A stretch of 64,000 bases of DNA from Escherichia coli 042 (GTDB lineage: Bacteria; Pseudomonadota; Gammaproteobacteria; Enterobacterales; Enterobacteriaceae). Made by a program: the position numbers and the translations under genes. This document shows positions 1 through 27,442 of this stretch, piece after piece (the stretch's first letter is position 1; each line of letters begins with the position of its first letter). Under the pieces are notes generated by a model. That model had not been told where the DNA came from. It made no database searches and saw only the letters and a program-made list of their open reading frames with translations. The stretch lies in assembly GCF_000027125.1 (NCBI RefSeq), contig NC_017627.1; one strand, given 5' to 3'.

Positions 1-161
1 ACGCCCGGCCACAACCCGGGGTAAATGTTCTTCAAAGTGAAGACGTAAAGCTTCAGTGATCCAGGTCCGGTGTTTCATACGATAGTGTCCATTAAAAATG
101 ATGGACATTATTTTTGTAGAGCCGGAGGAAACAGACCAGACGGTTTAAATGAGCCGGTTAC

Positions 162-368
162 GATGGTGTGTCATCTCTGCATTGAGAGCGGCTTCAACGC
201 TGAGCTTTTTCAGCAGCCGATCAAACTGACTGAGGTCTTCAGGGGTTTTGAGGTTTTTGGCCAGTTCGTTAGCCAGAGCCTGTAACTGTTTTTCGTCCAT
301 AAATTAACCTTCATTTGATGCTGGATTGAACATATCAAAATCAGGCAATTACACAAATCTATGTACAG
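162..368 (-). mobile_element. IS256-family insertion sequence fragment (terminus plus first ~47 codons of transposase, then diverges into a stop)
   Basis: About 207 bp identical to the 5-prime part of the IS256-like copies at 59508-60139 and 62689-63333; ORF begins MDEKQLQALANELAKNLKTPEDL and breaks after MTHH. Confidence 0.5.
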
Positions 369-1157
369 ACTCAACCGGGTTGATGAACTCCTGCCATGGA
401 ACGTAGTACTCACCAATAAATAAGCGTCAATACGGTGCTCCGTTGACGCTTACGAATGGTGGAATGACTGAGTGGACCTAACTGCAGGGCGATAGCCCGG
501 ACAGATAATTGCTCGTCGAATCTTAGACGTAATGCGTCTGGCAAATAAGAGCGAAAACCGGTGATATCTTTTGCTGTCTGAGAATTCATCGTTCGTGTCC
601 ATCAATATAGATGGACGCGATTGTTGCCAGACAGGACAACCATCACAAGACGTTACAGACGGAGCGCTTACTTTTGTGAAATTAATCAAAAAATATAAAA
701 TCACGACTTAATACGGAAAAAACTCTGTGCTACTCAGAACTGTCCGGTCATACTTCCCGACCGGATATTAAAAAAAGCAAATCTCATAAACTTCTTTCAG
801 CCTTCTGAATCCCTGGAGTAATGAAGGCTGCTTTTTTCGTTACACCCTTCCCCGGCTGCGCCGGTGGCAGTGTTCAGCCCTTTTTCGGGCAAACTGCTGC
901 CAGTCTGTCCGGGGCGCAACACCGGCAGCCCGTCGCCATGCTTCTGCCGCTTCCATCCAGCGTCCACTGACCTCCAGAATAACGGCCCGGCTTCCGGCAC
1001 GCTGCCAGCGCCAGACCTGACCGTTCCGTGAACTGTTTCTGAATCCATTCATCTTTATCACTCCTCTTTAACCCGTCAGTATTATGGTGTTAAATAATCT
1101 ACTGAATTGGCTTCCTTTCGGGTACGGAAGTTATTTCCTTTTAAGCCTTATTTCCCT

Positions 1158-1186
1158 GCCTCCTCTCTGATGGAGGCTTTTTTTTA
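1158..1186 (+). terminator. Hairpin plus T-run (plus-strand intrinsic terminator-like) abutting finO stop
   Basis: gcctcc...ggaggc stem followed by a run of 9 T on the plus strand. Confidence 0.35.
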
Positions 1187-1744
1187 TTTCTCATCAAGCA
1201 CGGCCTGAAGTTCTGCCTTTATCCGGTTCTGGCGGCGGATTTTATCCAGACGCGCTGCCGCATACGCTTCCTCCTCCTGAGAAATATGCTCCGTCACATA
1301 CCCTTCCGTGTCATACCGGCAGGCACCGGCTTTCATGGCACACAGATAGCTTTCTGAACGGGTGATGGCCTTCAGCGCCCTGCGCAGTTTTTTATGCGAG
1401 AGCGGGATATTCCGCTGCGCCACGTCTTCCAGTAACACGTCCCGGATACCGCAGGCCAGAAGCCGGGGCGTGTCACCGTCAAACAATCCCGGCCACCAGG
1501 GCTTCAGGGTGTTCACGGCCTCATCCAGTGTGGGCAGGTTCAGATAAATGGACAGCGCCTGTCTGGCCTGCGCTTTTTTTGCCGCCAGCTCTGCTTCCCG
1601 GGCTGCTTTCTCGGCCAGCTTCTGCTTTTTCACCTTCCACTTTGGTGGCGTGGTGACATTGATGATGGTTTTCCGGCTGCGGACAGGCGTCTCCCCTTCC
1701 GTTTTCCGCTTCAGTGTCAGTACCGGTCGCTTCTGCTCTGTCAT
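1184..1744 (-). CDS. finO: FinO fertility inhibition RNA chaperone
   Basis: 186 aa, [20 protein letters not shown]... near-identical to F/R100 FinO from memory; sits at distal end of tra operon. Confidence 0.95.
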
Positions 1745-1798
1745 GCTGTGTTCTGCCTCTGACGAATCATCCTGTTACGGTCAAAGATACCACACCCG

Positions 1799-2545
1799 TC
1801 ACAGCGCCAGAACGCCCAGCACAGCCAGATGACAGGCGTAGAATACCGGGAAAAAATCCCCGGGCCAGAAACGGGGTAATGATTTTCCTGCACACGACAC
1901 CAGACCAACGGTCAGCACCGTCATCACAAGACCGGCCACCGCCGCTGCATCACTGGTGGCAAGGTTAAGCGCCGGAATAACAGCCAGCAGGCAGGCGACC
2001 AGCGCCAGACGTTCCGCTCTGTCTTCCGCCCGGTACAGCCGGTGGCTGACTGCCAGCATCAGCAGCCCGGCAATGCCGTAACTGGTGCCGGACAAAGGCC
2101 CCCACAGGGCCATCAGAAGAATGGCCGCTGCTGTACGCCACCCACTGCGCGTTTCACACCACGTCAGCACCTGTGCCGCCACTGCAAAGGCAAACAGGAT
2201 ATTCCCCTCATACCAGGGAAAGCCTGCCAGATAATATGCGAACTGGGCAATAATTCCCCATCCCCACAGCCGGTTAATGGCTGGTTGCCGGATATGCGCA
2301 TGACGGGACAGATTCAGCCCCCACACCAGGGCAAAAAGCGGAAAGGCTCCTCGCCCGGTCAGAAACATCCATTCCTGCTTCAGCTGGAATATCAGATTGA
2401 TGTGGTCCAGTACCATCAGCACCAGTGCCACCGTTTTGATGATATCCCGCTGTCCGGGTGACCAGACCAGAAACGACTGCAACCAGGTATCGGTCCGTGC
2501 AGCCAGTGAATCGTTACGTGTCGTGTTCGTGTTATCCGTTGTCAT
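1799..2545 (-). CDS. traX: TraX pilin N-acetylase
   Basis: 248 aa polytopic membrane protein in conserved position between traI and finO. Confidence 0.92.
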   Translation of the reverse strand: MTTDNTNTTRNDSLAARTDTWLQSFLVWSPGQRDIIKTVALVLMVLDHINLIFQLKQEWMFLTGRGAFPLFALVWGLNLSRHAHIRQPAINRLWGWGIIAQFAYYLAGFPWYEGNILFAFAVAAQVLTWCETRSGWRTAAAILLMALWGPLSGTSYGIAGLLMLAVSHRLYRAEDRAERLALVACLLAVIPALNLATSDAAAVAGLVMTVLTVGLVSCAGKSLPRFWPGDFFPVFYACHLAVLGVLAL

Positions 2546-11939: not shown

Positions 11940-12443
11940 TTATCGCCTGTCATCATAGTCCTGCCAACAAGTCCCAAAAGTATTTCCTGCTGAATCAAAT
12001 CCTCCATGCATAGCTAATCCTGTTGCCGGATTAGTACGATAAAAATCCACATAATCAAAATTCACATCATCAAAATCCAGATGCAAATCTTCATTAGTTT
12101 GTTCATTTACCTGAGATTGCATCCATTCTCTTACACTTACACAACCACTAATTCGCCTTAATTCGTATAGTGTACCAATGATAAAAACCATCAGGCTTAA
12201 TAACGGAGAGAGTAAGGAAGATAATGGCATCAGTATATACCAAACGCCTTTACTGAATTTAAACTCATCCGACACATGCCGTTTTTTTCGTATTTGAGAA
12301 AACAACCATATAAACAATCCCTGCCATAGTACAATAAAGCACAGGATAAAAATTGTTTCGGCACTCCCCCAATCAGCCAGATAACAGGCAATGAACTGTA
12401 TCACCGTCACCAGAGCAATATGAGCTAAATTTTTCATTATCAT
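11940..12443 (-). CDS. traS: TraS-like entry exclusion inner membrane protein
   Basis: 167 aa hydrophobic protein in the traG-traS-traT position; assigned by synteny. Confidence 0.6.
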
Positions 12444-18103: not shown

Positions 18104-18374
18104 GTTAAACTCCGGTTATTATTTACATGAGAATATTCATGTCTGTAATATTCGCGTTTGTGTGATATTAATCAGATCAACCTCATTATTTTGTATGGTT
18201 TTTATTACCGTTTTATATGACTTAGCCTGTCATAAGCCCCTTATAAAAAACCACATCACTCCGGACCATGCCGATGACAACATAATACAGATAAATATTC
18301 TTCTGAACCTGTCGAAGCTCGTAACGTTCGGTAATGAACCAATAACCATTGGAACAACCATTGCTGCGCCCTGA
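18102..18374 (+). CDS. artA: ArtA-like ORF antisense to the traQ-trbA region
   Basis: Only plus-strand ORF within the tra operon at the position where F artA lies; assigned by position only. Confidence 0.3.
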   Translation: MLNSGYYLHENIHVCNIRVCVILIRSTSLFCMVFITVLYDLACHKPLIKNHITPDHADDNIIQINILLNLSKLVTFGNEPITIGTTIAAP

Positions 18375-18568
18375 TTCATAATTGCACCACACAGAAACCA
18401 GAGACTGGCGGTAAGCACATATAAACACGCGATATTAATAACAAGGAAAACCAGTGAACTCAGGAGAAACATTTTCCTGTCATTACGCTCAGAAAAGAAA
18501 TAACCGGCAATAATGACAAATATTAACAGAACAACACCTGTAAACATTTTCAAATAATCTTCACTCAT
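18230..18568 (-). CDS. trbA: TrbA small inner membrane protein
   Basis: 112 aa hydrophobic protein between traF and traQ. Confidence 0.8.
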   Translation of the reverse strand: MSEDYLKMFTGVVLLIFVIIAGYFFSERNDRKMFLLSSLVFLVINIACLYVLTASLWFLCGAIMNQGAAMVVPMVIGSLPNVTSFDRFRRIFICIMLSSAWSGVMWFFIRGL

Positions 18569-18583
18569 AAATCAAATCCGCGA

Positions 18584-19327
18584 TTAAAAATTTGGTTTAA
18601 AATCTTCAGAAACGTTCAGGAATTGTTTTGCCAGGTCGTCCTGCGAAATAAAGCCGTATGATAACGGGCGAACACTGCCCTGTTTCGGGTCAACCAGCAT
18701 CATGGCCGGGAAATATTTCACGCCGAGGCGCTGCGCCTGCCCCTGGTCAGTCCGGGAATCCGGCAACAGCGGATTAATCACGCCATCCACGGAAACGGGA
18801 ATAACACTCAGACCATACGTATCCCGGAAGCCATTAATGACCTGCGCCAGCTGCCCGTCGATGGGGTCCTGCCCCCGGTAAAAAAACATGATGCCGTAGT
18901 GTTCAGCCAGTTTCGCAATGGCCTGTCGCTGCTGCGCCTGGTCTGCCGCCAGCTGGTTCCGTACCGTGCCGTTGTAATGGCTGTACTGCAGGTTATAGTC
19001 CAGTTCGGGATGTGCCAGCATGGCCTTTTTAGCACTCATGGTGAAAAGCCCGGCCTGCTGAGTCCAGTAATTCTGCAGCCGGAAATATTTAACAAAATTA
19101 TCCACGCCGGGATACAGAATGGCTTCGTACAGCGCCCGCTTTGTTGCCGTCTGCAGCGCGGCCAGTTTCTGCATAATATCCGGCTCCTGACGGGGGGCTG
19201 CAGGTACAGGTTTATTTTCTTTTTCCTTCGGATTTATTTTCTCGTTATACCACTGCCAGCCTGCATCTTTCCCTGACGCCGGAAAAATAAAGCAGCAGAG
19301 TAACAGTGGCAGTAATGCTTTATTCAT
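18584..19327 (-). CDS. traF: TraF thioredoxin-like pilus assembly protein
   Basis: 247 aa from MNKALLPLLL..., signal peptide; F TraF length. Confidence 0.9.
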   Translation of the reverse strand: MNKALLPLLLCCFIFPASGKDAGWQWYNEKINPKEKENKPVPAAPRQEPDIMQKLAALQTATKRALYEAILYPGVDNFVKYFRLQNYWTQQAGLFTMSAKKAMLAHPELDYNLQYSHYNGTVRNQLAADQAQQRQAIAKLAEHYGIMFFYRGQDPIDGQLAQVINGFRDTYGLSVIPVSVDGVINPLLPDSRTDQGQAQRLGVKYFPAMMLVDPKQGSVRPLSYGFISQDDLAKQFLNVSEDFKPNF

Positions 19328-19580
19328 CTTCATTCCTTTCATCATTTTTTCTTTCATCATCTTTCTGCAGGCCAGTCAGGGCAGAAAAACAAAAATACAG
19401 AATAAACAGGAGCACACCGGAGTAAAAAATAACAAAACAAGCAGCAAGCATCTCACCTGCAGTGGTTTCTTTTACCGTATCCCACGACCAGATAATTACC
19501 GGGGAAATGACAATCGCTGTAATCAAAAGCCGGATAAGAAAATCAATAAAACGGTTCGACGTGAATATGACTTTCATCAT
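19320..19580 (-). CDS. trbE: TrbE small membrane protein
   Basis: 86 aa, same length as F TrbE, between traN and traF. Confidence 0.8.
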   Translation of the reverse strand: MMKVIFTSNRFIDFLIRLLITAIVISPVIIWSWDTVKETTAGEMLAACFVIFYSGVLLFILYFCFSALTGLQKDDERKNDERNEDE

Positions 19581-19603: not shown

Positions 19604-21454
19604 TTACTGTCCTGCCTGTTTCAGCTGGTCAGCAATCTGCTCTTTCACTTTCTGCGTCAGAACGCCACTGTCCGGGATTTTCTGGTTATTCATCAGGTCT
19701 TCGTAGAAGTTAGTGAAATCCAGTCTGTCGAACTGAATTTTCTGCAGCTCATCAACCGTAATCCCCCGACAGTCAGGATGCTTCGCACTGCCAAACCCGA
19801 TACGCAACTGCCCGTTACGCCCCTGCTGCTGAACTATCTGCGCCAGCTTCGAATCAAACTGACAGTAGCTGCGTTTTTTCTGCAGACAGACCCCCAGCAC
19901 CTTTTTCGAACAGAACTCACCCACACTCACCGTCAGTTTATTGTCCTTTGCCTTTCCCAGCGCCTTTTCTTCACTGTTACACTTCGCCAGCCCCACATCC
20001 TGACCCCAGCCGCCATCCTTACAGCAGTTACTGAAGCCGGCTGCGGCCTTACGGCAGAATTTCGCCTCACCCGTGAAAGCCCTGACATCCACACCATTCA
20101 GGGCGGCAACATCCTTACCTGCGGCGGCAAGCGCAGCCAGCTGTGATACTGCTTCACCAAAATCACTGCTTTTTCCGCTCTGTGCCTTATCGCATTCACC
20201 GTCAAGGCAGAAGACATCACCACCACAGACCATCACTTTTCCTGATGTTTTTGACTCGCAGGAGTACGTGGCGTACTCATGCAGACAGGTTCCCTCATCG
20301 GAATAAAACGCGCACTGACGTGAGGCCAGCGTACAGGCCGGATTATCGACATATTTCTGACAGGTGCCGTTATCTGCGGACTGAGTGACATATTTATCCC
20401 GGTATGCCCAGCATGCCTGTGTGATGTTCCAGGGTTTACCTTCCATCACTCCGGTTTTCGTACCACCCGGCTCTGAACACTCAGTGCCTGTCAGCACGCC
20501 ATCCGCTTTATTAAACGGACAACTCTCCACCCACTCCACCCGGGGAACCCATTCTTTATCACGGACCTTCATCCTGAGTTTCAGCGTAAAGGTGGAAGCA
20601 CCACTGACAAGCGATTCATAGACTTTCCTGTCACCATTCCCGTGCGGGAGGCAATTACCGTTAGCAGTACAGCCACTACCGGTCAGAACCTGCCCCTGTG
20701 TCACCTGCAAACCTGTCGCCCCGGACAGGGGGTAAGTATCCGACTGCCCGTTTGCCAGGCCGACATTAAAGGTTGTATTCATGAAGGTATAACGGGAGTT
20801 CAGGAAGAAAAAAGCGGCGTATACAGACAATGATGCACTTTCCACTGTACCGGTTACCGGAGCCGTGACACTGAACACCAGTTTCAGACCGTTCATACTG
20901 AACCGGAACTGTGAGTGCGGTATCGTCACCTCACGATATTCATCCGTGTATTTCCAGTCCCCGGTGATACTGGCAGTCCGTGTGCAGTACTCCTCCACCA
21001 TCGTGTCCCGCTCACAGGTATAGTTTGTGAACTCACTGCGGTTTATCTGCTGCGCACTGCACTGCTGCCCGGTGTTTCCCACAATGCTGTCAGCCCGGTT
21101 CACCACATCCCTGCCGGTCTGAATGAACGGTGCATCCGGTGACAGAATGTCTTTCGGCTTGTTCATGAAGGACTCTGTGATGGTTTTTCCGGTTTCACCT
21201 GTCGCCCATTCCGTGGTGCCGTCATTTTTCAGGCCGCCATCCCCGCCGGCAGTCACGCCACCGTAATATTTTGTCTCGTCCGGATTCGCGTTATAGCCGG
21301 GGATACTCTCCTGTGGCTTAAAGCTCTGAATACTGCCTGTACCCTGCCCCTGAATCTGACGGGCAAAATCAGAACCGGCCCGGTAATCACTGTTGCTGTC
21401 AGCCTGTGCCATGCCGGCAACCAGAGCCAGTATCAGAGGTAAAATACGTTTCAT
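19604..21454 (-). CDS. traN: TraN outer-membrane mating pair stabilisation protein
   Basis: 616 aa, signal peptide, cysteine-rich C-terminal half. Confidence 0.95.
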   Translation of the reverse strand: MKRILPLILALVAGMAQADSNSDYRAGSDFARQIQGQGTGSIQSFKPQESIPGYNANPDETKYYGGVTAGGDGGLKNDGTTEWATGETGKTITESFMNKPKDILSPDAPFIQTGRDVVNRADSIVGNTGQQCSAQQINRSEFTNYTCERDTMVEEYCTRTASITGDWKYTDEYREVTIPHSQFRFSMNGLKLVFSVTAPVTGTVESASLSVYAAFFFLNSRYTFMNTTFNVGLANGQSDTYPLSGATGLQVTQGQVLTGSGCTANGNCLPHGNGDRKVYESLVSGASTFTLKLRMKVRDKEWVPRVEWVESCPFNKADGVLTGTECSEPGGTKTGVMEGKPWNITQACWAYRDKYVTQSADNGTCQKYVDNPACTLASRQCAFYSDEGTCLHEYATYSCESKTSGKVMVCGGDVFCLDGECDKAQSGKSSDFGEAVSQLAALAAAGKDVAALNGVDVRAFTGEAKFCRKAAAGFSNCCKDGGWGQDVGLAKCNSEEKALGKAKDNKLTVSVGEFCSKKVLGVCLQKKRSYCQFDSKLAQIVQQQGRNGQLRIGFGSAKHPDCRGITVDELQKIQFDRLDFTNFYEDLMNNQKIPDSGVLTQKVKEQIADQLKQAGQ

Positions 21455-22101
21455 TTCCCGGAATCTCCTTTCCCTGCCAGTAAATCATGAGCCACCTGCC
21501 GGCAGTCACCCGTGGCGGCAACTTTCTCCAGCGCCTGCCTGACGCGCAGATTTCCCCGGATGATGTCGTGCCCCTGGCTGCAGAACACCACCAGGGCCGG
21601 AACGCTGCGAATGCCGTACTGTGAAAACAGCGTCGGGTCGATCTGAACACCATCAGTTGCGCCGTCTTTCACCAGGGACAACACGGCGTCAGCCGTGGCC
21701 TTCAGGTCGTTGTTCACCATGCCCCGCAGCGTGGCGGGAATACCGTAGTGCCGGGTTTCGCTCAGCATCCTTTTCAGCCCCTCTTCGGGTATGGAAAACG
21801 ACACAAAATACAGGGCACCCTGCCGGGGTTTCCCGTCCTGCGAAGCCTGCTGTTTACGAACCAGCTCATCCAGAAAATGGTTATCTGAACGCTGAAGGGG
21901 GTTTTCCAGCACCTGTTTCTCCGCCCAGGCTTTCAGCTGATGGTCAGGTTTCTCTCGCAGTTGTCTGCTTAAATTTTCCTGCTGCTTCAGGAACTGGCGG
22001 TTTTCAGTTGTGTTCACATTTTCTGAAGCATGAACAGCAAGATGCATCCCTGCTGTCAGAGCAAAAAGTGCAAATATTTTCCGGTTCATGATATTTCTCA
22101 C
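21451..22101 (-). CDS. trbC: TrbC periplasmic pilus assembly protein
   Basis: 216 aa with signal peptide, between traU and traN. Confidence 0.9.
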   Translation of the reverse strand: MRNIMNRKIFALFALTAGMHLAVHASENVNTTENRQFLKQQENLSRQLREKPDHQLKAWAEKQVLENPLQRSDNHFLDELVRKQQASQDGKPRQGALYFVSFSIPEEGLKRMLSETRHYGIPATLRGMVNNDLKATADAVLSLVKDGATDGVQIDPTLFSQYGIRSVPALVVFCSQGHDIIRGNLRVRQALEKVAATGDCRQVAHDLLAGKGDSGK

Positions 22102-22409
22102 TTTCTGCTATTTACAGGCATGAACTCATCAGAAAAAAGATAATTGAGAAAAACAGCCATAAACACACATGTAAATGTCACCTTCAGATATAATCTGACA
22201 AGTGTCACTTGTTCTGATATATCTGCCTTCTTCCATTCATGAATAATTTCAGCGAGAAAACTGTCAGGTGCAAAATAAAATAATATAACGGGCACCATTA
22301 CAAGACCAAAAGGAAATAAATTTAATGTTCTGCTTATCAGCCTGAGCAGCACAGCACCTATTTTCCTGAGGTGCTGAATATATTTACTGTCCATTGTTGC
22401 CATTTTCAT
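22098..22409 (-). CDS. Hypothetical small two-helix membrane protein inserted between traU and trbC
   Basis: 103 aa, hydrophobic segments IGAVLLRLISRTLNLFPFGLVMVPVILFYFAP and VTFTCVFMAVFLNYLF; strongly AT-rich relative to flanking tra genes. Confidence 0.45.
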   Translation of the reverse strand: MKMATMDSKYIQHLRKIGAVLLRLISRTLNLFPFGLVMVPVILFYFAPDSFLAEIIHEWKKADISEQVTLVRLYLKVTFTCVFMAVFLNYLFSDEFMPVNSRK

Positions 22410-22432
22410 TTCCTCTTATTCATTAAAATGAT

Positions 22433-23425
22433 TTACAGGAATACACAGTTACGTTTACGCCACATCAGGTAGCCGAAGTTTTTCTTTGTGTTGGGCGGAT
22501 TTTTTCCCGTCTCCCAGCGCATCACACTGCGCCCGAACGGATGGCACTGTCCGCTGTCCGGATACATATTCACCATCTGATAACGCCAGCGTTCTTTGGG
22601 CAGGATTGGGGACGGATATTCATTACAGACGGCGTTATTTTTCCCGATGGTTTCCATAATCATGCCCTGACGGTGCAGCTTGAATGCCATGCGTTCACTG
22701 ACCAGCAGGGAGGACTGCAACGGACTGGACTCATTACTCACCCAGCCATTGAACGGGTACATACTGCCCTGCGAACCGGCACACCAGAACAGAACATCGA
22801 GAGGCATATTAAAGGCACTGGCAATGGCATCTGCTGCGCAGGCCCCCTGTGCTATCGGATTGGCAAAAATGACGGCTTCCGGGTTGAGAATGGTGGTCAG
22901 GCTGCTGTCCGTCCAGGTGGGGTCGATTTCAGAAAGATAAGCGATATCCAGGTCACCACCTTCCAGACAGCCCAGCGATGTGATGATGTTCAGCCAGTAC
23001 GTCAGCGGGTATTTGTACCAGTGAACGTGATAGAACGCCCCGTTCACCTGCTTCTCATCCTTTTTCGCCGTTCCCTGTGCCGTTTTACCAAAAGCCGGCA
23101 GGCTGAAGCCCAGGTTAACCATGCATCCCGGTGATCGGGTGACGTCCGTCAGCGCCATCGGCTCCCAGTAACCAATGGCCAGCCCGATACGCCTGAACAG
23201 CGGCGGCGGTGCCGGACAAATCTGAATGGGCATCGACGGGTTCGCCGTGTCGGGGACCTTACCCTGACTGACTTTGATACTGCCCAGCGAGAGCGGGAAA
23301 ATACAGCTCCAGCAGATATCCGTGATCGGGTTTACAAAACGCCCCTCACAGGCAGAATCCGCAGACGCCGCAGGGACATGACCGGCGAGAAGGAATAACA
23401 TCAGCAGCCACAGTCTTCGCTTCAT
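22433..23425 (-). CDS. traU: TraU pilus assembly / DNA transfer protein
   Basis: 330 aa with signal peptide; F TraU length. Confidence 0.95.
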   Translation of the reverse strand: MKRRLWLLMLFLLAGHVPAASADSACEGRFVNPITDICWSCIFPLSLGSIKVSQGKVPDTANPSMPIQICPAPPPLFRRIGLAIGYWEPMALTDVTRSPGCMVNLGFSLPAFGKTAQGTAKKDEKQVNGAFYHVHWYKYPLTYWLNIITSLGCLEGGDLDIAYLSEIDPTWTDSSLTTILNPEAVIFANPIAQGACAADAIASAFNMPLDVLFWCAGSQGSMYPFNGWVSNESSPLQSSLLVSERMAFKLHRQGMIMETIGKNNAVCNEYPSPILPKERWRYQMVNMYPDSGQCHPFGRSVMRWETGKNPPNTKKNFGYLMWRKRNCVFL

Positions 23426-24437: not shown

Positions 24438-27061
24438 GCAACACTCCTGTATTTCTCATGTTCTTCCAGCCAGGCCTCCAGCGAAGCCATCTCCGGCCCC
24501 GATTTCTTCCACGCCAGCTGCCACACCGCCTCATGAATACTCATACCCTCTCTGCGTTTCTGCTGCACAAACTCAAAATCCGGGCCGTCAGAGCTGTACA
24601 TGGCACGGCTTAACGGGTCCACAAACAGACGGTGCCAGGAGGAATGGTTTTCCACCTGCAGCAGGAAGGAACTGAACCACTGGTCTTTGGCCGCACCAAA
24701 CTTACCAATCATGTCGCGCTGCAGTGGCAGGAACTGGTCCGGATACAGCTGGTTGTATTTCGCGAACTCCTTCGCACTCTGTTTGAGGATAATTTTGTAG
24801 GAGGAGTTACCCCATGCCGCGCGGGCCGCACTGGAGGCCTTGTCAGAGTCAAAGTCGACGATGTTCTGTGTGATGGTGATATAGGCACCGGTATGACGGC
24901 GGGCGGTACGGTAACCTTTCTCAATAAATTCACCGACCTTGTGATTTTTGAAGTCCAGCAGACGCCAGCCTTCATCAATGACGTTCAGTTTCTTGAGGTT
25001 ACGCGGCGTGCGGTACATCCGGTTCTCAATGTAAATGATAAGGCTGAACATCACCGCAACCAGCAGGGACGGACGGTCTTCCAGTCCGCCCAGCTCCAGC
25101 ACCACCATTTTCGCATCATCCCGCAGGGACGGCTCATCGGAGTTGAAATACTGGCCATAAGTGCCGTTAGCAGTGTACTGGTCAAGCAGCACAATCATTT
25201 CGTCCAGACGGCTGCGGATAGTCGGTGACTCTACATACTGGTCGTTATCACGGGCGTTTTTCAGGAAATCCACCACATCATCGATGCGCGCCTTATTCTT
25301 TTTAGCCAGCCAGGAGGCCCTGACCGCCTGCAGCAGCAGACCTTCATGCACTTCATCCAGGTTACCGTTGGGGCTGGCCATCACCGACAACTGGTCGCGG
25401 ACACGCTCCGCTGACTGGTCAATATCGGTGATGTTCGCAAACGGGTTAAAACGCAGGGTTTCACCGTCCAGATATACGCCCCCCATGTTCTCACACAGGG
25501 ACTTGTAGCCATCCCCCATGTCGAACACCACGGCAAAGCCCCCGGAGTCCAGCACGCTGCGGATAAGTGGCTGTATCAGCCCGGTTTTACCGGCCCCGGA
25601 GGTGCCACAGACCGCCATGTTGTAGTTGGTGTTATTCATCCCCCGGAAGAAAATATCGATAAACGCCAGCTGATTACGGTAGGTGGGTGCCAGCAGACCT
25701 GCCGGTGTCAGGGGGTTATCCGCCACTAACGGCATCAGGTTGGCCACATTAAAGCTCTCTGCGCGCTGTACCACTCCGGCCTCTTTCAGCTGTTTAAACA
25801 ACCCTTTCCCGGCCATAAAGGGCAGGCAGGTCAGGAAATTGCGCATGTGGTTAAAGCGCGGTGAAATCAGCTCAAAACCGTTTTTACGGAAGCTGTTCAG
25901 GATGTCCTGCTCCACTTCCAGCGCCGTTTCATTATTGTCCTTGCAGAATGCTGTGATGTTGAGGAAGTAGGACACGACAGAGGACTGACCGGAGCCCAGC
26001 CGCTGACGCAGTTCCCCCCACTCCTTCGCCTCTTTCTCCACGGACGGAAACCATTTGGCATAGGAGGTCTTCGACTTTTTCTCCAGGTCCATGTACTTCA
26101 GGTTGGCTTCGCTGTGAGTTTTCACCTGGTCTTCCACCACCAGAGTCAGCGTCAGGATGAACGGACAGGAGATGGACAGTTCCGGGTTCAGCAGGTTGCT
26201 GTAGTTGTCGGCCATGTTCCACAGGAAGGCGATTTCCGGGTTACGGGCCAGATGGAAATTCAGGATGCGGGCCGTGCTGTTCCTGCCGTTCTCACGCAGG
26301 CCCAGCGTCAGGTAATCCGCCCGGACTTTCAGGTCAAAACTGTCCTCCACACACTGATAATTCAGATCAGAATACGGGTCCAGCTGACGTCTTTTCGGAT
26401 ACAGGGAGTCCGGGTTATGGTTAATCATCTCCCCGACAATATCGATAAAGGCCTGTGCATCCACCGCCTGTGTGGTGATACTGGCCCCCTGTAACGACGC
26501 CCGGATGATTTTCACCAGGTTTTCCATTTCCAGAATGTCAGCCCGGCTTTTTTTCTTCGAGGGAGAACAGTACGAGAAGAATACCCGGTAATGGCGCAGG
26601 GTCAGGGGCAGATTCATCCCCTCCGGCAGCGGAAACTGTGTCGCTGCCGCGTTCATATAATAGGCACGGGTAATGGCGTTAAACCGTTCAGCCTGTTCAC
26701 CGGACCAGGAGAACTCACGCAGCCCGTATTCAATTCTGTCACCAACAAGCTGACTGGACATCAGATGGATGCAGAACGGCACTCCGCGCGGCAGTTTGGT
26801 GCGCAGCATGTGGTCGAGCGCCTCCACAATGGACTCATTCGCCCCATTGATGGGAATGGCTTCCAGCATAAAGCCCATCGTGGTGTCATTCATGAACAGA
26901 CCGGATTCCTGGTTATAATCACGGTACGGCAGCAGACGGCTGAACTGCGGGAAGCTCATTTCGCCCAGAACTTCATTGGCCTTTGCGGATTCGTCAGGCA
27001 GTTTCAGTGCTGTGACGAGGGAGTTAACCGCCTGAGTGACGGCCTCAAGTGGGTTATTCAC
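24434..27061 (-). CDS. traC: TraC VirB4-like ATPase
   Basis: 875 aa, same as F TraC; Walker A GTSGAGKT. Confidence 0.97.
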   Translation of the reverse strand: MNNPLEAVTQAVNSLVTALKLPDESAKANEVLGEMSFPQFSRLLPYRDYNQESGLFMNDTTMGFMLEAIPINGANESIVEALDHMLRTKLPRGVPFCIHLMSSQLVGDRIEYGLREFSWSGEQAERFNAITRAYYMNAAATQFPLPEGMNLPLTLRHYRVFFSYCSPSKKKSRADILEMENLVKIIRASLQGASITTQAVDAQAFIDIVGEMINHNPDSLYPKRRQLDPYSDLNYQCVEDSFDLKVRADYLTLGLRENGRNSTARILNFHLARNPEIAFLWNMADNYSNLLNPELSISCPFILTLTLVVEDQVKTHSEANLKYMDLEKKSKTSYAKWFPSVEKEAKEWGELRQRLGSGQSSVVSYFLNITAFCKDNNETALEVEQDILNSFRKNGFELISPRFNHMRNFLTCLPFMAGKGLFKQLKEAGVVQRAESFNVANLMPLVADNPLTPAGLLAPTYRNQLAFIDIFFRGMNNTNYNMAVCGTSGAGKTGLIQPLIRSVLDSGGFAVVFDMGDGYKSLCENMGGVYLDGETLRFNPFANITDIDQSAERVRDQLSVMASPNGNLDEVHEGLLLQAVRASWLAKKNKARIDDVVDFLKNARDNDQYVESPTIRSRLDEMIVLLDQYTANGTYGQYFNSDEPSLRDDAKMVVLELGGLEDRPSLLVAVMFSLIIYIENRMYRTPRNLKKLNVIDEGWRLLDFKNHKVGEFIEKGYRTARRHTGAYITITQNIVDFDSDKASSAARAAWGNSSYKIILKQSAKEFAKYNQLYPDQFLPLQRDMIGKFGAAKDQWFSSFLLQVENHSSWHRLFVDPLSRAMYSSDGPDFEFVQQKRREGMSIHEAVWQLAWKKSGPEMASLEAWLEEHEKYRSVA

Positions 27062-27220: not shown

Positions 27221-27442
27221 TTATGCATAATGTTTTCTCTGCTTTTCCTGATACGCCTGACATTCAACGCACAACGTCACACCGGGAAATATTTTCCGCC
27301 GGGCTTCCGGAATAGGATTTCCGCATGCTTCACAGAGATAAACAGGAATACCATGAGCATTTATTTTCTGGCGTATCCGGTTTATTCCTGTCATGGTCAG
27401 TTGTTCTGTTACTGAATATGCTTCATCGACTTCATCACTCAC
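27221..27442 (-). CDS. traR: TraR DksA-like zinc-finger protein
   Basis: 73 aa, CxxC...CxxC motif (CEACGNPI...CVEC). Confidence 0.9.
   Translation of the reverse strand: MSDEVDEAYSVTEQLTMTGINRIRQKINAHGIPVYLCEACGNPIPEARRKIFPGVTLCVECQAYQEKQRKHYA

What the first reader, a model, noticed from the sequence alone, without database searches (positions are those of the whole stretch)
22098..22409. AT-rich small membrane protein ORF inserted between traU and trbC
A 103-aa two-helix ORF with markedly lower GC than neighbouring tra genes lies in a position where, as I recall, F has traU directly followed by trbC. It overlaps both neighbours by 4 bp (operon-embedded). Could be an accessory pilus, exclusion or small defence-related protein.
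Basis: partly seen in the sequence, partly recalled or inferred. Interest (0 to 1): 0.45.

Follow-up and report, generated by a model that had tools for sequence, protein, structure and literature searches.

The report
Uncharacterised small membrane gene in tra operon
This is a real but already catalogued gene for a roughly 100-residue inner-membrane protein that many R100-type conjugative plasmids carry between traU and trbC; F lacks it, nobody has tested its function, and it appears dispensable for DNA transfer.

Summary
The ORF at 22098-22409 (minus strand) is real. It is the only long ORF in a 343-nt segment of 34% GC that lies between traU and trbC, both 55% GC. A conserved Shine-Dalgarno sequence points to the third codon as the start (22403, 101 aa). 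It does not overlap traU, and it overlaps trbC only if an unannotated GTG start is used.

F joins traU to trbC with 8 nt and has no such gene. R100 has a 94%-identical 101-aa "hypothetical protein" at the same site.

About 2000 PLSDB plasmids carry a family member at this junction. Alleles range from 94% down to 29% identity, while the neighbouring TraU stays at 92-99.7%.

New here: clear homologues (35-36% identity) lie in the distal transfer operon of IncX4/IncX5 plasmids, just upstream of a thermonuclease gene.

The predicted protein is a hairpin of two membrane helices, with both ends in the cytoplasm and a fixed 21-residue acidic loop carrying a near-invariant Trp. It matches no Pfam, NCBIfam, PADLOC, PHROG or PDB entry.

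Conjugative plasmids that lack it (F, pHNSHP23) show it is dispensable for transfer. I read it as a fast-evolving accessory envelope protein made in donor cells. The mechanism is unresolved. This is a known sequence of modest interest.

The parts
22098..22403 (-). Coding sequence of the 101-aa small membrane protein, stop codon included. This is the likely true start (ATG, Met3 of the 103-codon ORF). The product is identical to RefSeq WP_000224413.1.
   Evidence: ORF list and sequence. 101-aa annotation in H1/L019, R100 and pEFC36a. The exact protein is seen on at least 1000 contigs.
22404..22409 (-). Two extra codons (ATG AAA) of the mechanical 103-codon ORF. Probably not translated.
   Evidence: The GAGG core is only 2 nt from this ATG and 8 nt from the next one.
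22410..22417 (-). Shine-Dalgarno sequence AAGAGGAA. The same motif sits 7-9 nt upstream of the start in the divergent IncF alleles.
   Evidence: Upstream sequences of 10 alleles compared.
22266..22328 (-). Membrane helix 1 (residues 28-48 of the 103-aa numbering), opening with the LFPF motif that is invariant among the IncF alleles. Only Pro33 stays near-invariant once the IncX members are included.
   Evidence: Hydropathy. AlphaFold2 helix 2-46, pLDDT above 90. Alignments A2 and A4.
22203..22265 (-). 21-residue acidic loop (residues 49-69) containing a short helix and the near-invariant Trp59. Its length never varies across the family, and it is predicted to face the periplasm.
   Evidence: Alignment A4 has no indels here. 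Net charge is -1 to -5 in all 18 members, while the N-terminus is positive in 14 of the 16 members that have one and the C-terminus in 13 of 18. AlphaFold2 helix 49-61.
22134..22202 (-). Membrane helix 2 (residues 70-92), preceded by the conserved RLYLK motif.
22030..22434 (.). Segment with no counterpart in F. Homology to F stops at the traU stop codon and resumes 60 nt inside trbC (the signal-peptide region). F has about 70 nt here.
   Evidence: blastn of the window against F: 23500-22435 at 97.3% and 22029-21006 at 94.1%. Junction alignment.
22433..23425 (-). traU, the upstream neighbour (stop TAA at 22433-22435).
21451..22089 (-). trbC, the downstream neighbour (annotated ATG start at 22089).

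Best explanation
The ORF is a genuine gene of the R100-type tra operon. It is read through from the long tra transcript and translated from its own ribosome-binding site, starting at 22403. This step is inferred from operon position, the absence of any promoter- or terminator-like site, and the conserved Shine-Dalgarno sequence.

The product is a 101-residue inner-membrane helical hairpin. The N-terminus is basic and cytoplasmic. The 21-residue acidic loop, which carries a near-invariant Trp, faces the periplasm. The C-terminus returns to the cytoplasm. This topology is predicted, not measured.

The gene belongs to a very small, unnamed, fast-evolving family confined to transfer operons of enterobacterial conjugative plasmids. 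In IncF plasmids it sits at the traU-trbC junction. In some IncX4/IncX5 plasmids it sits at the end of the pilX-taxB operon.

It is not part of the core transfer machine and is dispensable for DNA transfer. Because the same family serves two unrelated type IV secretion architectures, my best guess is that it acts in the donor on something generic rather than on a specific Tra protein. That target could be the host envelope or a host periplasmic or inner-membrane factor. It would act as a cost- or stress-buffering or protective accessory while the secretion system is made. This last step is inference only.
For: Real gene:
- It is the only ORF of at least 40 aa in the AT-rich segment, and its length is unlikely by chance (P about 0.011).
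- The Shine-Dalgarno sequence is conserved across alleles.
- Alleles share only 62-68% nucleotide and 29-45% protein identity, yet keep length, hydrophobic pattern and motifs.
- dN/dS is 0.3-0.5 between divergent alleles and 0.10 between two IncX alleles.
- The exact 101-aa protein occurs on at least 1000 contigs.

Membrane hairpin:
- Hydropathy supports two membrane helices.
- The AlphaFold2 model has pLDDT 85 with helices 2-46, 49-61 and 64-92.
- The charge distribution fits both ends in the cytoplasm: the loop is net acidic in all 18 members, the N-terminus net basic in 14 of 16 and the C-terminus in 13 of 18.

Operon-embedded:
- No promoter-like site, terminator-like site (the single terminator-like match, 21810-21823, lies inside trbC) or Rfam element lies in the ORF segment or at its junctions.

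Accessory and dispensable:
- F has no such gene.
- The family is present in about 2013 of at least 5000 TraU-bearing plasmids.
- The conjugative IncX4 plasmid pHNSHP23 lacks it (transfer shown in PMC8725589).

Shared by two transfer-system types:
- BLASTP against the IncX5 and IncX4 proteins gives E = 6e-19 and 6e-16, with 35-36% identity and no gaps.
- The IncX context is virB11-taxB-Cag12-TrbM-hyp-[member]-nuc.

Fast evolution:
- Between the window and L002, TraU is 99.7% identical but the ORF only 41.6%.
Against: - No experiment bears on the function, and no paper I could search names the gene.
- No homology to anything characterised: Pfam, NCBIfam, PADLOC, PHROGs, PDB sequences and Foldseek all return nothing.
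- Among the closest R100-type alleles, substitutions are mostly non-synonymous (6N:1S, 3N:0S, 8N:4S). This fits very weak constraint, or diversifying selection, as well as a housekeeping accessory role.
- The envelope-buffering idea rests only on exclusion of alternatives.
- Natural absence shows that transfer is possible without the gene. It does not show that the gene has no quantitative effect.
Confidence: 0.55

Rival explanations
1. It is a conflict or specificity determinant. On this view, a hypervariable inner-membrane protein acts against competitors. It could work like an exclusion or fertility-inhibition factor against other plasmids, or block entry of pilus-dependent phages at the inner membrane of piliated donors.
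For: - Allele divergence far exceeds that of the flanking genes: TraU 92-99.7% against 29-45% for the ORF.
- Close alleles differ mostly by non-synonymous changes.
- The composition is AT-rich and foreign, like traS.
- The junction is a hot spot that collects extra cargo and even tandem paralogues.
- In IncX4 the same slot is filled by a family member, by a non-homologous 102-aa protein with two hydrophobic segments, or by nothing.
- Both IncF and IncX donors make pili that filamentous phages use. This last point is from my own knowledge and was not tested.
Against: - No similarity to TraS of F or R100 or to any PADLOC or PHROG model, and no copies in phages.
- The plasmids already encode TraS/TraT or EexN.
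- ORF divergence scales with TrbC divergence (2.4%, 3.8%, 15%, 17% and 29% in TrbC against 6%, 8%, 58%, 55% and 71% in the ORF). Simple fast evolution within a co-inherited block explains most of the pattern without allele swapping.
- Pairwise dN/dS is below 1 wherever there are enough substitutions to measure it.
- R100-1 and R1-19 donors are classical hosts of male-specific phages (my own knowledge).
Confidence: 0.2
2. It is an auxiliary subunit of the transfer apparatus, comparable to TrbI, TraP, TrbE or TrbA. It would contact a conserved inner-membrane component through its periplasmic loop and fine-tune pilus dynamics or mating efficiency under particular conditions.
For: - It lies between two pilus-assembly genes inside the operon.
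- Every context I could identify is a transfer operon.
- The inter-helix loop has a fixed length and, with the two membrane helices, is better conserved than the termini (2.5-2.8 against 2.1-2.2 bits per column).
- UniProt labels family members 'Conjugative transfer protein', which is an automatic name.
Against: - F and about half of close relatives assemble working machines without it.
- A 35%-identical homologue serves a VirB-type system whose subunits are barely related to the F-type ones.
- No hhalign similarity to TrbE, TrbA or TraL.
Confidence: 0.17
3. It partners the plasmid thermonuclease, for example as a membrane anchor, release factor or immunity factor for the periplasmic Nuc.
For: - In all four annotated IncX loci with a gene in this slot (three carry a family member; L023 carries the unrelated 102-aa protein), the slot gene's stop overlaps the thermonuclease start by 4 bp or the two genes lie 2 nt apart.
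- R100 carries both the ORF and a Nuc that is 55-59% identical to the IncX Nuc.
- pHNSHP23 has lost both together.
Against: - In IncF plasmids the two genes are more than 20 kb apart.
- The window has the ORF but no nuc homologue anywhere in its 64 kb, including the position nuc occupies in R100.
- The Nuc proteins begin with a typical hydrophobic signal peptide of their own, read from the sequences.
Confidence: 0.05
4. It is a non-functional or decaying ORF. On this view the AT-rich spacer matters, if at all, as DNA, for example as an H-NS binding site inside the operon, and the reading frame is incidental.
For: - The gene is dispensable.
- Close alleles have a near-neutral ratio of non-synonymous to synonymous changes.
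- Truncated and frameshifted variants exist in the protein collections.
Against: - The frame stays open at about 100 codons in alleles that share only 62-68% nucleotide identity.
- The Shine-Dalgarno sequence is conserved.
- The loop has no indels and a near-invariant Trp.
- dN/dS is 0.10 between the IncX alleles.
- 1757 of 2013 plasmid hits cover at least 80% of the protein. Most of the remainder are probably the divergent Salmonella allele rather than truncations.
Confidence: 0.03

Closest known systems
R100 / pC15-1a 101-aa 'hypothetical protein' WP_000224416.1 at the traU-trbC junction (called yfdA, 'putative conjugative transfer protein', in pEFC36a; allelic forms WP_000412447.1 and the pSLT-type Q93GM9)
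   Same: Same gene: 94% protein identity, the same 343-nt interval between traU and trbC, and the same Shine-Dalgarno sequence and start. The window's own product is RefSeq WP_000224413.1.
   Different: A few substitutions only. None of these entries has a tested function.
IncX4/IncX5 homologues (pBK31567 WP_015256850.1; pYJ3-b WP_000623495.1)
   Same: 35-36% identity over 71-78 residues without gaps, with the same hairpin and the same 21-residue loop motif. They also sit in the conjugative transfer operon.
   Different: The transfer system is VirB-type (MPF_T/MOBP) rather than F-type. The position is after taxB-Cag12-TrbM, translationally coupled to a thermonuclease gene. The N-terminal helix is more hydrophobic. 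The composition is closer to the backbone (37-39% against 41-46% GC).
F-plasmid small non-essential inner-membrane tra products TrbE and TrbA (also TrbJ, TrbF, TrbD)
   Same: Same kind of object: short, hydrophobic, AT-rich ORFs (38-39% GC here) embedded between essential tra genes. They are known from the F literature to be dispensable for transfer (my own knowledge; Maneewannakul et al. 1992 and Kathir & Ippen-Ihler 1991, not read here).
   Different: No detectable sequence or profile similarity (hhalign probability below 2%). TrbE and TrbA are present in F, whereas this gene is not.
TraS entry-exclusion protein
   Same: An inner-membrane, AT-rich protein that diverges much faster than its neighbours. 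The window's TraS is 79.5% identical to R100's, against 95.5% for TraG.
   Different: No similarity. The locus differs, since traS lies between traG and traT. This protein is about half the size. This family also occurs in IncX plasmids, which use an EexN lipoprotein for exclusion.

Membership tests
Unnamed 'traU-trbC junction' small membrane protein family (R100 WP_000224416 type; no Pfam or NCBIfam model) | Significant sequence similarity to R100, pSLT and other members | tested here: met
   94% identity to R100. tblastn finds 2013 plasmid records. The profile search finds 44 clusters, the best at E = 1.9e-45.
Unnamed 'traU-trbC junction' small membrane protein family (R100 WP_000224416 type; no Pfam or NCBIfam model) | Location between traU and trbC in an F-type tra operon | tested here: met
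   Annotated loci L001-L004, L006 and L015-L019.
Unnamed 'traU-trbC junction' small membrane protein family (R100 WP_000224416 type; no Pfam or NCBIfam model) | Two-helix hairpin with an indel-free 21-residue acidic loop, near-invariant Pro33 and Trp59, and invariant Leu75 | tested here: met
   Alignment A4, the charge table and the AlphaFold2 model.
F TrbE / TrbA class of small non-essential tra membrane proteins | Homology to TrbE or TrbA | tested here: not met
   hhalign probability 0.5% and 1.2%.
F TrbE / TrbA class of small non-essential tra membrane proteins | Small hydrophobic product encoded inside the tra operon | tested here: met
F TrbE / TrbA class of small non-essential tra membrane proteins | A mutant transfers and makes pili normally | not testable with these tools
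   Only indirect evidence is available: F and pHNSHP23 lack the gene and still conjugate.
TraS-type entry exclusion | Homology to TraS and a position between traG and traT | tested here: not met
   hhalign probability below 1% against F and R100 TraS. The window's traS is elsewhere, at 11949-12443.
TraS-type entry exclusion | Reduces entry of the cognate plasmid when expressed in a recipient | not testable with these tools
   Requires mating assays.
Known anti-phage defence systems (PADLOC-DB v2) | Match to a defence-protein model | tested here: not met
   No families at E up to 1 for three alleles and three neighbouring cargo ORFs. No copy in 50,697 phage records.
VirB3 / TraL family (small two-helix T4SS subunit) | Profile similarity to TraL | tested here: not met
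   hhalign probability 0.15%. The operon already has traL.
Class II holin-like proteins | Small protein with two membrane helices and both ends in the cytoplasm | tested here: inconclusive
   The predicted topology is compatible, but this topology is common and the C-terminus is not strongly charged.
Class II holin-like proteins | Match to a holin family, or an adjacent lysis partner | tested here: not met
   No Pfam or PHROG holin hit. The neighbours are traU and trbC.

The most novel reading that the evidence does not exclude
The traU-trbC junction of IncF plasmids and the pre-nuc slot of IncX plasmids are equivalent hot spots. Each holds interchangeable proteins of about 100 residues with two membrane helices that take part in inter-element conflict. 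On this reading the ORF family is one of several unrelated occupants. The occupants would protect pilus-bearing donors, for example against pilus-dependent phage entry at the inner membrane or against a competitor's secretion system, and they would evolve fast for that reason.
Probability: 0.12. Interest if true: 0.6.

Novelty: already known. Interest (0 to 1): 0.25.

Why it matters
IncF and IncX4 plasmids are major carriers of antibiotic-resistance genes, and their transfer operons are usually treated as fully catalogued. This gene is one of the few very common tra-operon genes with no assigned role. It is present in roughly half of E. coli-type F-like plasmids.

Two observations give a concrete starting point for a knock-out study: the same family also sits in IncX transfer operons, and it evolves several times faster than its neighbours. 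If it modulates donor fitness, phage susceptibility or plasmid competition, it could help explain why R100-like backbones spread differently from F-like ones. If it does nothing measurable, it is an example of a tolerated passenger gene in a tightly packed operon. As it stands, the finding is a correct observation of a known but unstudied gene.

Tried and rejected
Searches that found nothing:
- Pfam on the single protein and on the 18-member alignment.
- NCBIfam: only a chance 14-bit hit to a PTS IIC model.
- PADLOC and PHROGs.
- PDB sequence profiles.
- Foldseek against PDB gave noise only. Foldseek against AFDB50 found only the family's own Salmonella member.
- tblastn against phages.

Comparisons that ruled out kinship:
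- Profile comparisons with TrbE, TrbA, TraS (F and R100) and TraL were all below 2% probability.

Alternative readings of the segment as a regulatory element:
- No promoter-like sites. The one terminator-like site lies inside trbC. Only chance Rfam hits.
- A 12-nt imperfect direct repeat brackets the ORF (22110-22121 and 22431-22442). About one such pair is expected by chance in 900 bp, and it does not match F's junction, so I dropped it.

Literature:
- No searchable paper mentions a gene between traU and trbC, yfdA, ygeA or the RefSeq accession.
- The two papers most likely to mention it are not held: Anthony et al. 1999, J Bacteriol 181:5149, and Cox & Schildbach 2017, Plasmid 91:53. R1 (KY749247) and the original R100 record (AP000342) are not in the collections either.

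A lead that failed:
- I tried to use the Tn5 conjugation screen of the IncX4 plasmid pHNSHP23 (PMC8725589) as a functional test of the IncX homologue.
- Mapping the cds4 deletion primers showed that cds4 is a different gene.
- Fetching pHNSHP23 showed that it lacks the family member altogether. The screen therefore says nothing direct, and only the natural absence is informative.

A rejected link:
- An obligate partnership with the thermonuclease was considered and rejected, because the window has no nuc homologue.
Full report
**1. The observation**

The window carries an F-like tra operon on the minus strand: traC, trbI, traW, traU, the ORF, trbC, traN, trbE, traF, trbA, traQ. The ORF runs from the ATG at 22409 to the TGA at 22098-22100 and is 103 codons long.

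- It is the only ORF of at least 40 aa on either strand of the 343-nt interval between the traU stop (TAA, 22433-22435) and the annotated trbC start (ATG, 22089).
- Its GC is 35% and GC3 34%, against 55%/66% for traU and 55%/62% for trbC. The sliding profile dips to 35% exactly over it.
- A stop-free run this long in any of six frames of composition-matched random sequence has P of about 0.011.

- On the traU side, 23-29 nt separate the ORF from traU. This spacer contains AAGAGGAA (22410-22417). The GAGG core lies 8 nt from the second in-frame ATG (22403) and only 2 nt from the first, so the real product is probably 101 aa. RefSeq, R100 and pEFC36a annotate it that way.
- On the trbC side, only an unannotated GTG gives a GTGA overlap. 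The ATG used in all relatives lies 8 nt after the stop.

**2. Comparison with F, R100 and other plasmids**

- F (NC_002483) joins traU to trbC with 8 nt and has no such gene.
- Homology between F and the window stops at the traU stop codon (97.3% identity up to 22435). It resumes at 22029, 60 nt inside trbC.
- R100 (NC_002134) has a 101-aa hypothetical protein at the same place, 94% identical.
- The 801-nt junction is found at 99% identity or more in 624 PLSDB plasmids.
- The exact 101-aa protein is on at least 1000 contigs. It is named "hypothetical protein" or, automatically in UniProt, "Conjugative transfer protein".
- tblastn finds a family member in 2013 plasmids. At least 5000 plasmids carry TraU, and 3612 of those have TraU at 90% identity or more to the window's. 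The gene is therefore common but far from universal.

**3. A fast-evolving family at a variable junction**

The 2013 hits fall into discrete allele classes:
- 90% identity or more: about 1156 records.
- About 42-52% identity, often accompanied by extra cargo ORFs.
- About 29% identity: the pSLT-type allele in Salmonella.

The flanking genes are far more similar. Between the window and L002, TraU is 99.7% identical, TrbC 85% and the ORF 41.6%. Against the pSLT-like plasmid the figures are 95%, 71% and 29%. ORF divergence rises with TrbC divergence but is two to four times larger. Rapid evolution inside a co-inherited block explains most of this pattern.

The junction is also a hot spot for cargo. 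The traU-to-trbC interval measures 8 nt in F, 343 nt here, 945 nt in L002 and 2051 nt in L004. L004 keeps a second remnant of the traU 3' end in front of its allele. L015 carries two family genes in tandem, the second fused to a 173-aa ORF.

The gene is protein-coding throughout:
- The AAGAGGA Shine-Dalgarno sequence is kept.
- The length stays near 100 codons.
- dN/dS is 0.3-0.5 between divergent alleles, where dS is saturated, and 0.10 between two IncX alleles.
- Among the closest R100-type alleles the few changes are mostly non-synonymous (6:1, 3:0, 8:4). This indicates weak constraint or diversification, but the counts are too small to decide.

**4. Relatives outside IncF**

An exhaustive profile search of 1.84 billion representative proteins found only 44 clusters, many of them fragments. 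The distant full-length members are not in F-type operons. They lie in IncX plasmids (MPF_T, MOBP):
- IncX5 pBK31567.
- IncX4 pYJ3-b.
- A metagenomic contig.

In these loci the order is virB11 - taxB - Cag12-like - TrbM/KikA - small ORF - family member - thermonuclease - ... - topB - hha - hns. The member's stop overlaps the nuclease start by 4 bp, or the two genes lie 2 nt apart as in pBK31567. Pairwise BLASTP of the window protein against the IncX5 and IncX4 proteins gives E = 6e-19 and 6e-16, with 35-36% identity and no gaps. About 50 PLSDB plasmids carry this IncX type.

In IncX4 the slot is itself variable:
- p94-2 has a non-homologous 102-aa protein with two hydrophobic segments in the same place, also overlapping nuc.
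- The epidemic mcr-1 plasmid pHNSHP23 has lost the whole segment, nuc included.

R100 also carries a thermonuclease that is 55-59% identical to the IncX one, together with hha and a DUF2726 gene. R100-type IncF and IncX plasmids therefore draw on a common pool of accessory genes. The family's GC (37-39%) is close to the IncX backbone (41-46%) but 20 points below the IncF tra operon. This is compatible with import into IncF from a low-GC plasmid; that is an inference.

**5. The protein**

- AlphaFold2 with the 18-member alignment gives a confident model (pLDDT 85) with three helices: 2-46, 49-61 and 64-92.
- Hydropathy places membrane segments at about 28-48 and 70-92.
- Across the family the N-terminus is net basic (in 14 of the 16 members that have one), the 21-residue inter-helix loop is net acidic in all 18 and never has an indel, and the C-terminus is usually basic. 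This predicts both ends in the cytoplasm and the loop in the periplasm.
- Leu75 is invariant and Pro33 and Trp59 are near-invariant across all members. LFPF, FYF-P-[DE], W-x3-D and RLYLK are the recognisable motifs within IncF.
- Nothing characterised resembles it by sequence, profile or fold. It is unrelated to TrbE, TrbA, TraS or TraL.

**6. What it most likely does**

Shown here:
- It is a real gene, embedded in the operon with its own ribosome-binding site.
- It encodes a small membrane hairpin.
- It belongs to a plasmid-transfer-operon family shared by IncF and IncX.
- It evolves fast.
- It is absent from plasmids that are fully conjugative. These are F (my own knowledge) and pHNSHP23 (PMC8725589).

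Inferred:
- It is an accessory factor made in donors whenever the secretion system is made.
- Because it works in two unrelated machine types, it more probably acts on a generic or host target in the envelope than on a specific Tra subunit.

Four rivals remain, in my order of likelihood:
- A conflict or specificity role. This is supported by the divergence pattern and the hot-spot behaviour. It is weakened by the lack of any similarity to exclusion or defence proteins and by dN/dS below 1.
- A fine-tuning subunit of the apparatus.
- A thermonuclease partner. This is suggested by translational coupling in IncX. It is contradicted by the window, which has the ORF but no nuc in 64 kb.
- A decaying passenger. 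This is contradicted by the conserved frame, Shine-Dalgarno sequence and loop.

None of these can be settled without a knock-out.

**7. Literature**

No searchable paper names or tests this gene. The two papers most likely to mention it are not held. The Tn5 screen of IncX4 pHNSHP23 looked promising. However, cds4 maps elsewhere and that plasmid lacks the family.

**8. Verdict**

The reading of an extra accessory membrane protein relative to F is right. The gene is already present, unnamed and unstudied, in R100 and thousands of sequenced plasmids.

What this analysis adds:
- The IncX connection.
- The measure of how much faster the gene evolves than its neighbours.
- The predicted topology and conserved loop.
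- The evidence that it is dispensable for transfer.

Interest is modest at 0.25. It would rise only if a conflict-type function were shown.

Noticed in passing
window 19320-19580 (-) and 18230-18568 (-): trbE and trbA are also short, hydrophobic, AT-rich ORFs (38-39% GC, GC3 39-42%) inside the 53-60% GC tra operon. They belong to the same compositional class as the finding.
   Followed up: partly
window 11949-12443 (-): The window's TraS is only 79.5% identical to R100's TraS, while TraG is 95.5% and TraT 99%. This plasmid therefore has a different entry-exclusion allele.
   Followed up: no
window 59137-59385 (-) and 63456-63704 (+): Two RepA2/CopB-like matches (50.6% identity to R100 RepA2) lie in inverted orientation about 4 kb apart, next to a repA1 homologue at 57977-58828. 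This could be a duplicated or second replicon control region.
   Followed up: no
window 1-2509: traX and finO are adjacent, so R100's alpha/beta-hydrolase gene is absent. No thermonuclease, hha or DUF2726 homologue follows the ANR-like gene at 843-1052, unlike in R100.
   Followed up: partly
L004 2219-2687 (CP057156.1): A second, 72%-identical copy of the traU 3' end sits directly upstream of this plasmid's allele, downstream of an inserted 180-aa ORF. It looks like a scar of cassette insertion by recombination at the traU end.
   Followed up: partly
L015 3590-3901 and 4001-4780 (Logan SRR25250747): Two family genes lie in tandem at the traU-trbC junction. The second (P0052, 259 aa) is fused in frame to the 173-aa cargo ORF that follows the allele in L002.
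   Followed up: partly
L002 4043-4862 (NZ_CP114987.1): The next junction, trbC-traN, carries a 123-aa hypothetical gene and an HNH endonuclease gene in this plasmid. Several inter-gene junctions of the tra operon therefore accept cargo.
   Followed up: no
L019 23011-24563 (NZ_CP027554.1): A plasmid that is 100% identical to the window over the queried 801-nt traU-ORF-trbC junction (window 21900-22700) has four hypothetical ORFs between traR and traC. The window lacks them: traC ends at 27061 and traR is at 27221-27442.
   Followed up: no
L023 3398-3706 (IncX4 p94-2) and L024 13431-13740 (pHNSHP23): The slot before the thermonuclease gene in IncX4 can hold a non-homologous 102-aa protein with two hydrophobic segments. 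In the epidemic mcr-1 plasmid it is deleted together with nuc.
   Followed up: yes
L009 3715-3936 and L013 442-648: The 68-73-aa ORF just upstream of the IncX-type family members has faint similarity to F TrbD and to the VirB11 P-loop region (E about 0.002-0.007). This may be another small accessory gene shared by IncF and IncX.
   Followed up: no
L011 1606-3444 (Logan SRR21418948): In one metagenomic contig the family member directly follows a 612-aa trimeric-autotransporter-adhesin-like gene, next to Cag12-like and TrbM-like genes.
   Followed up: no
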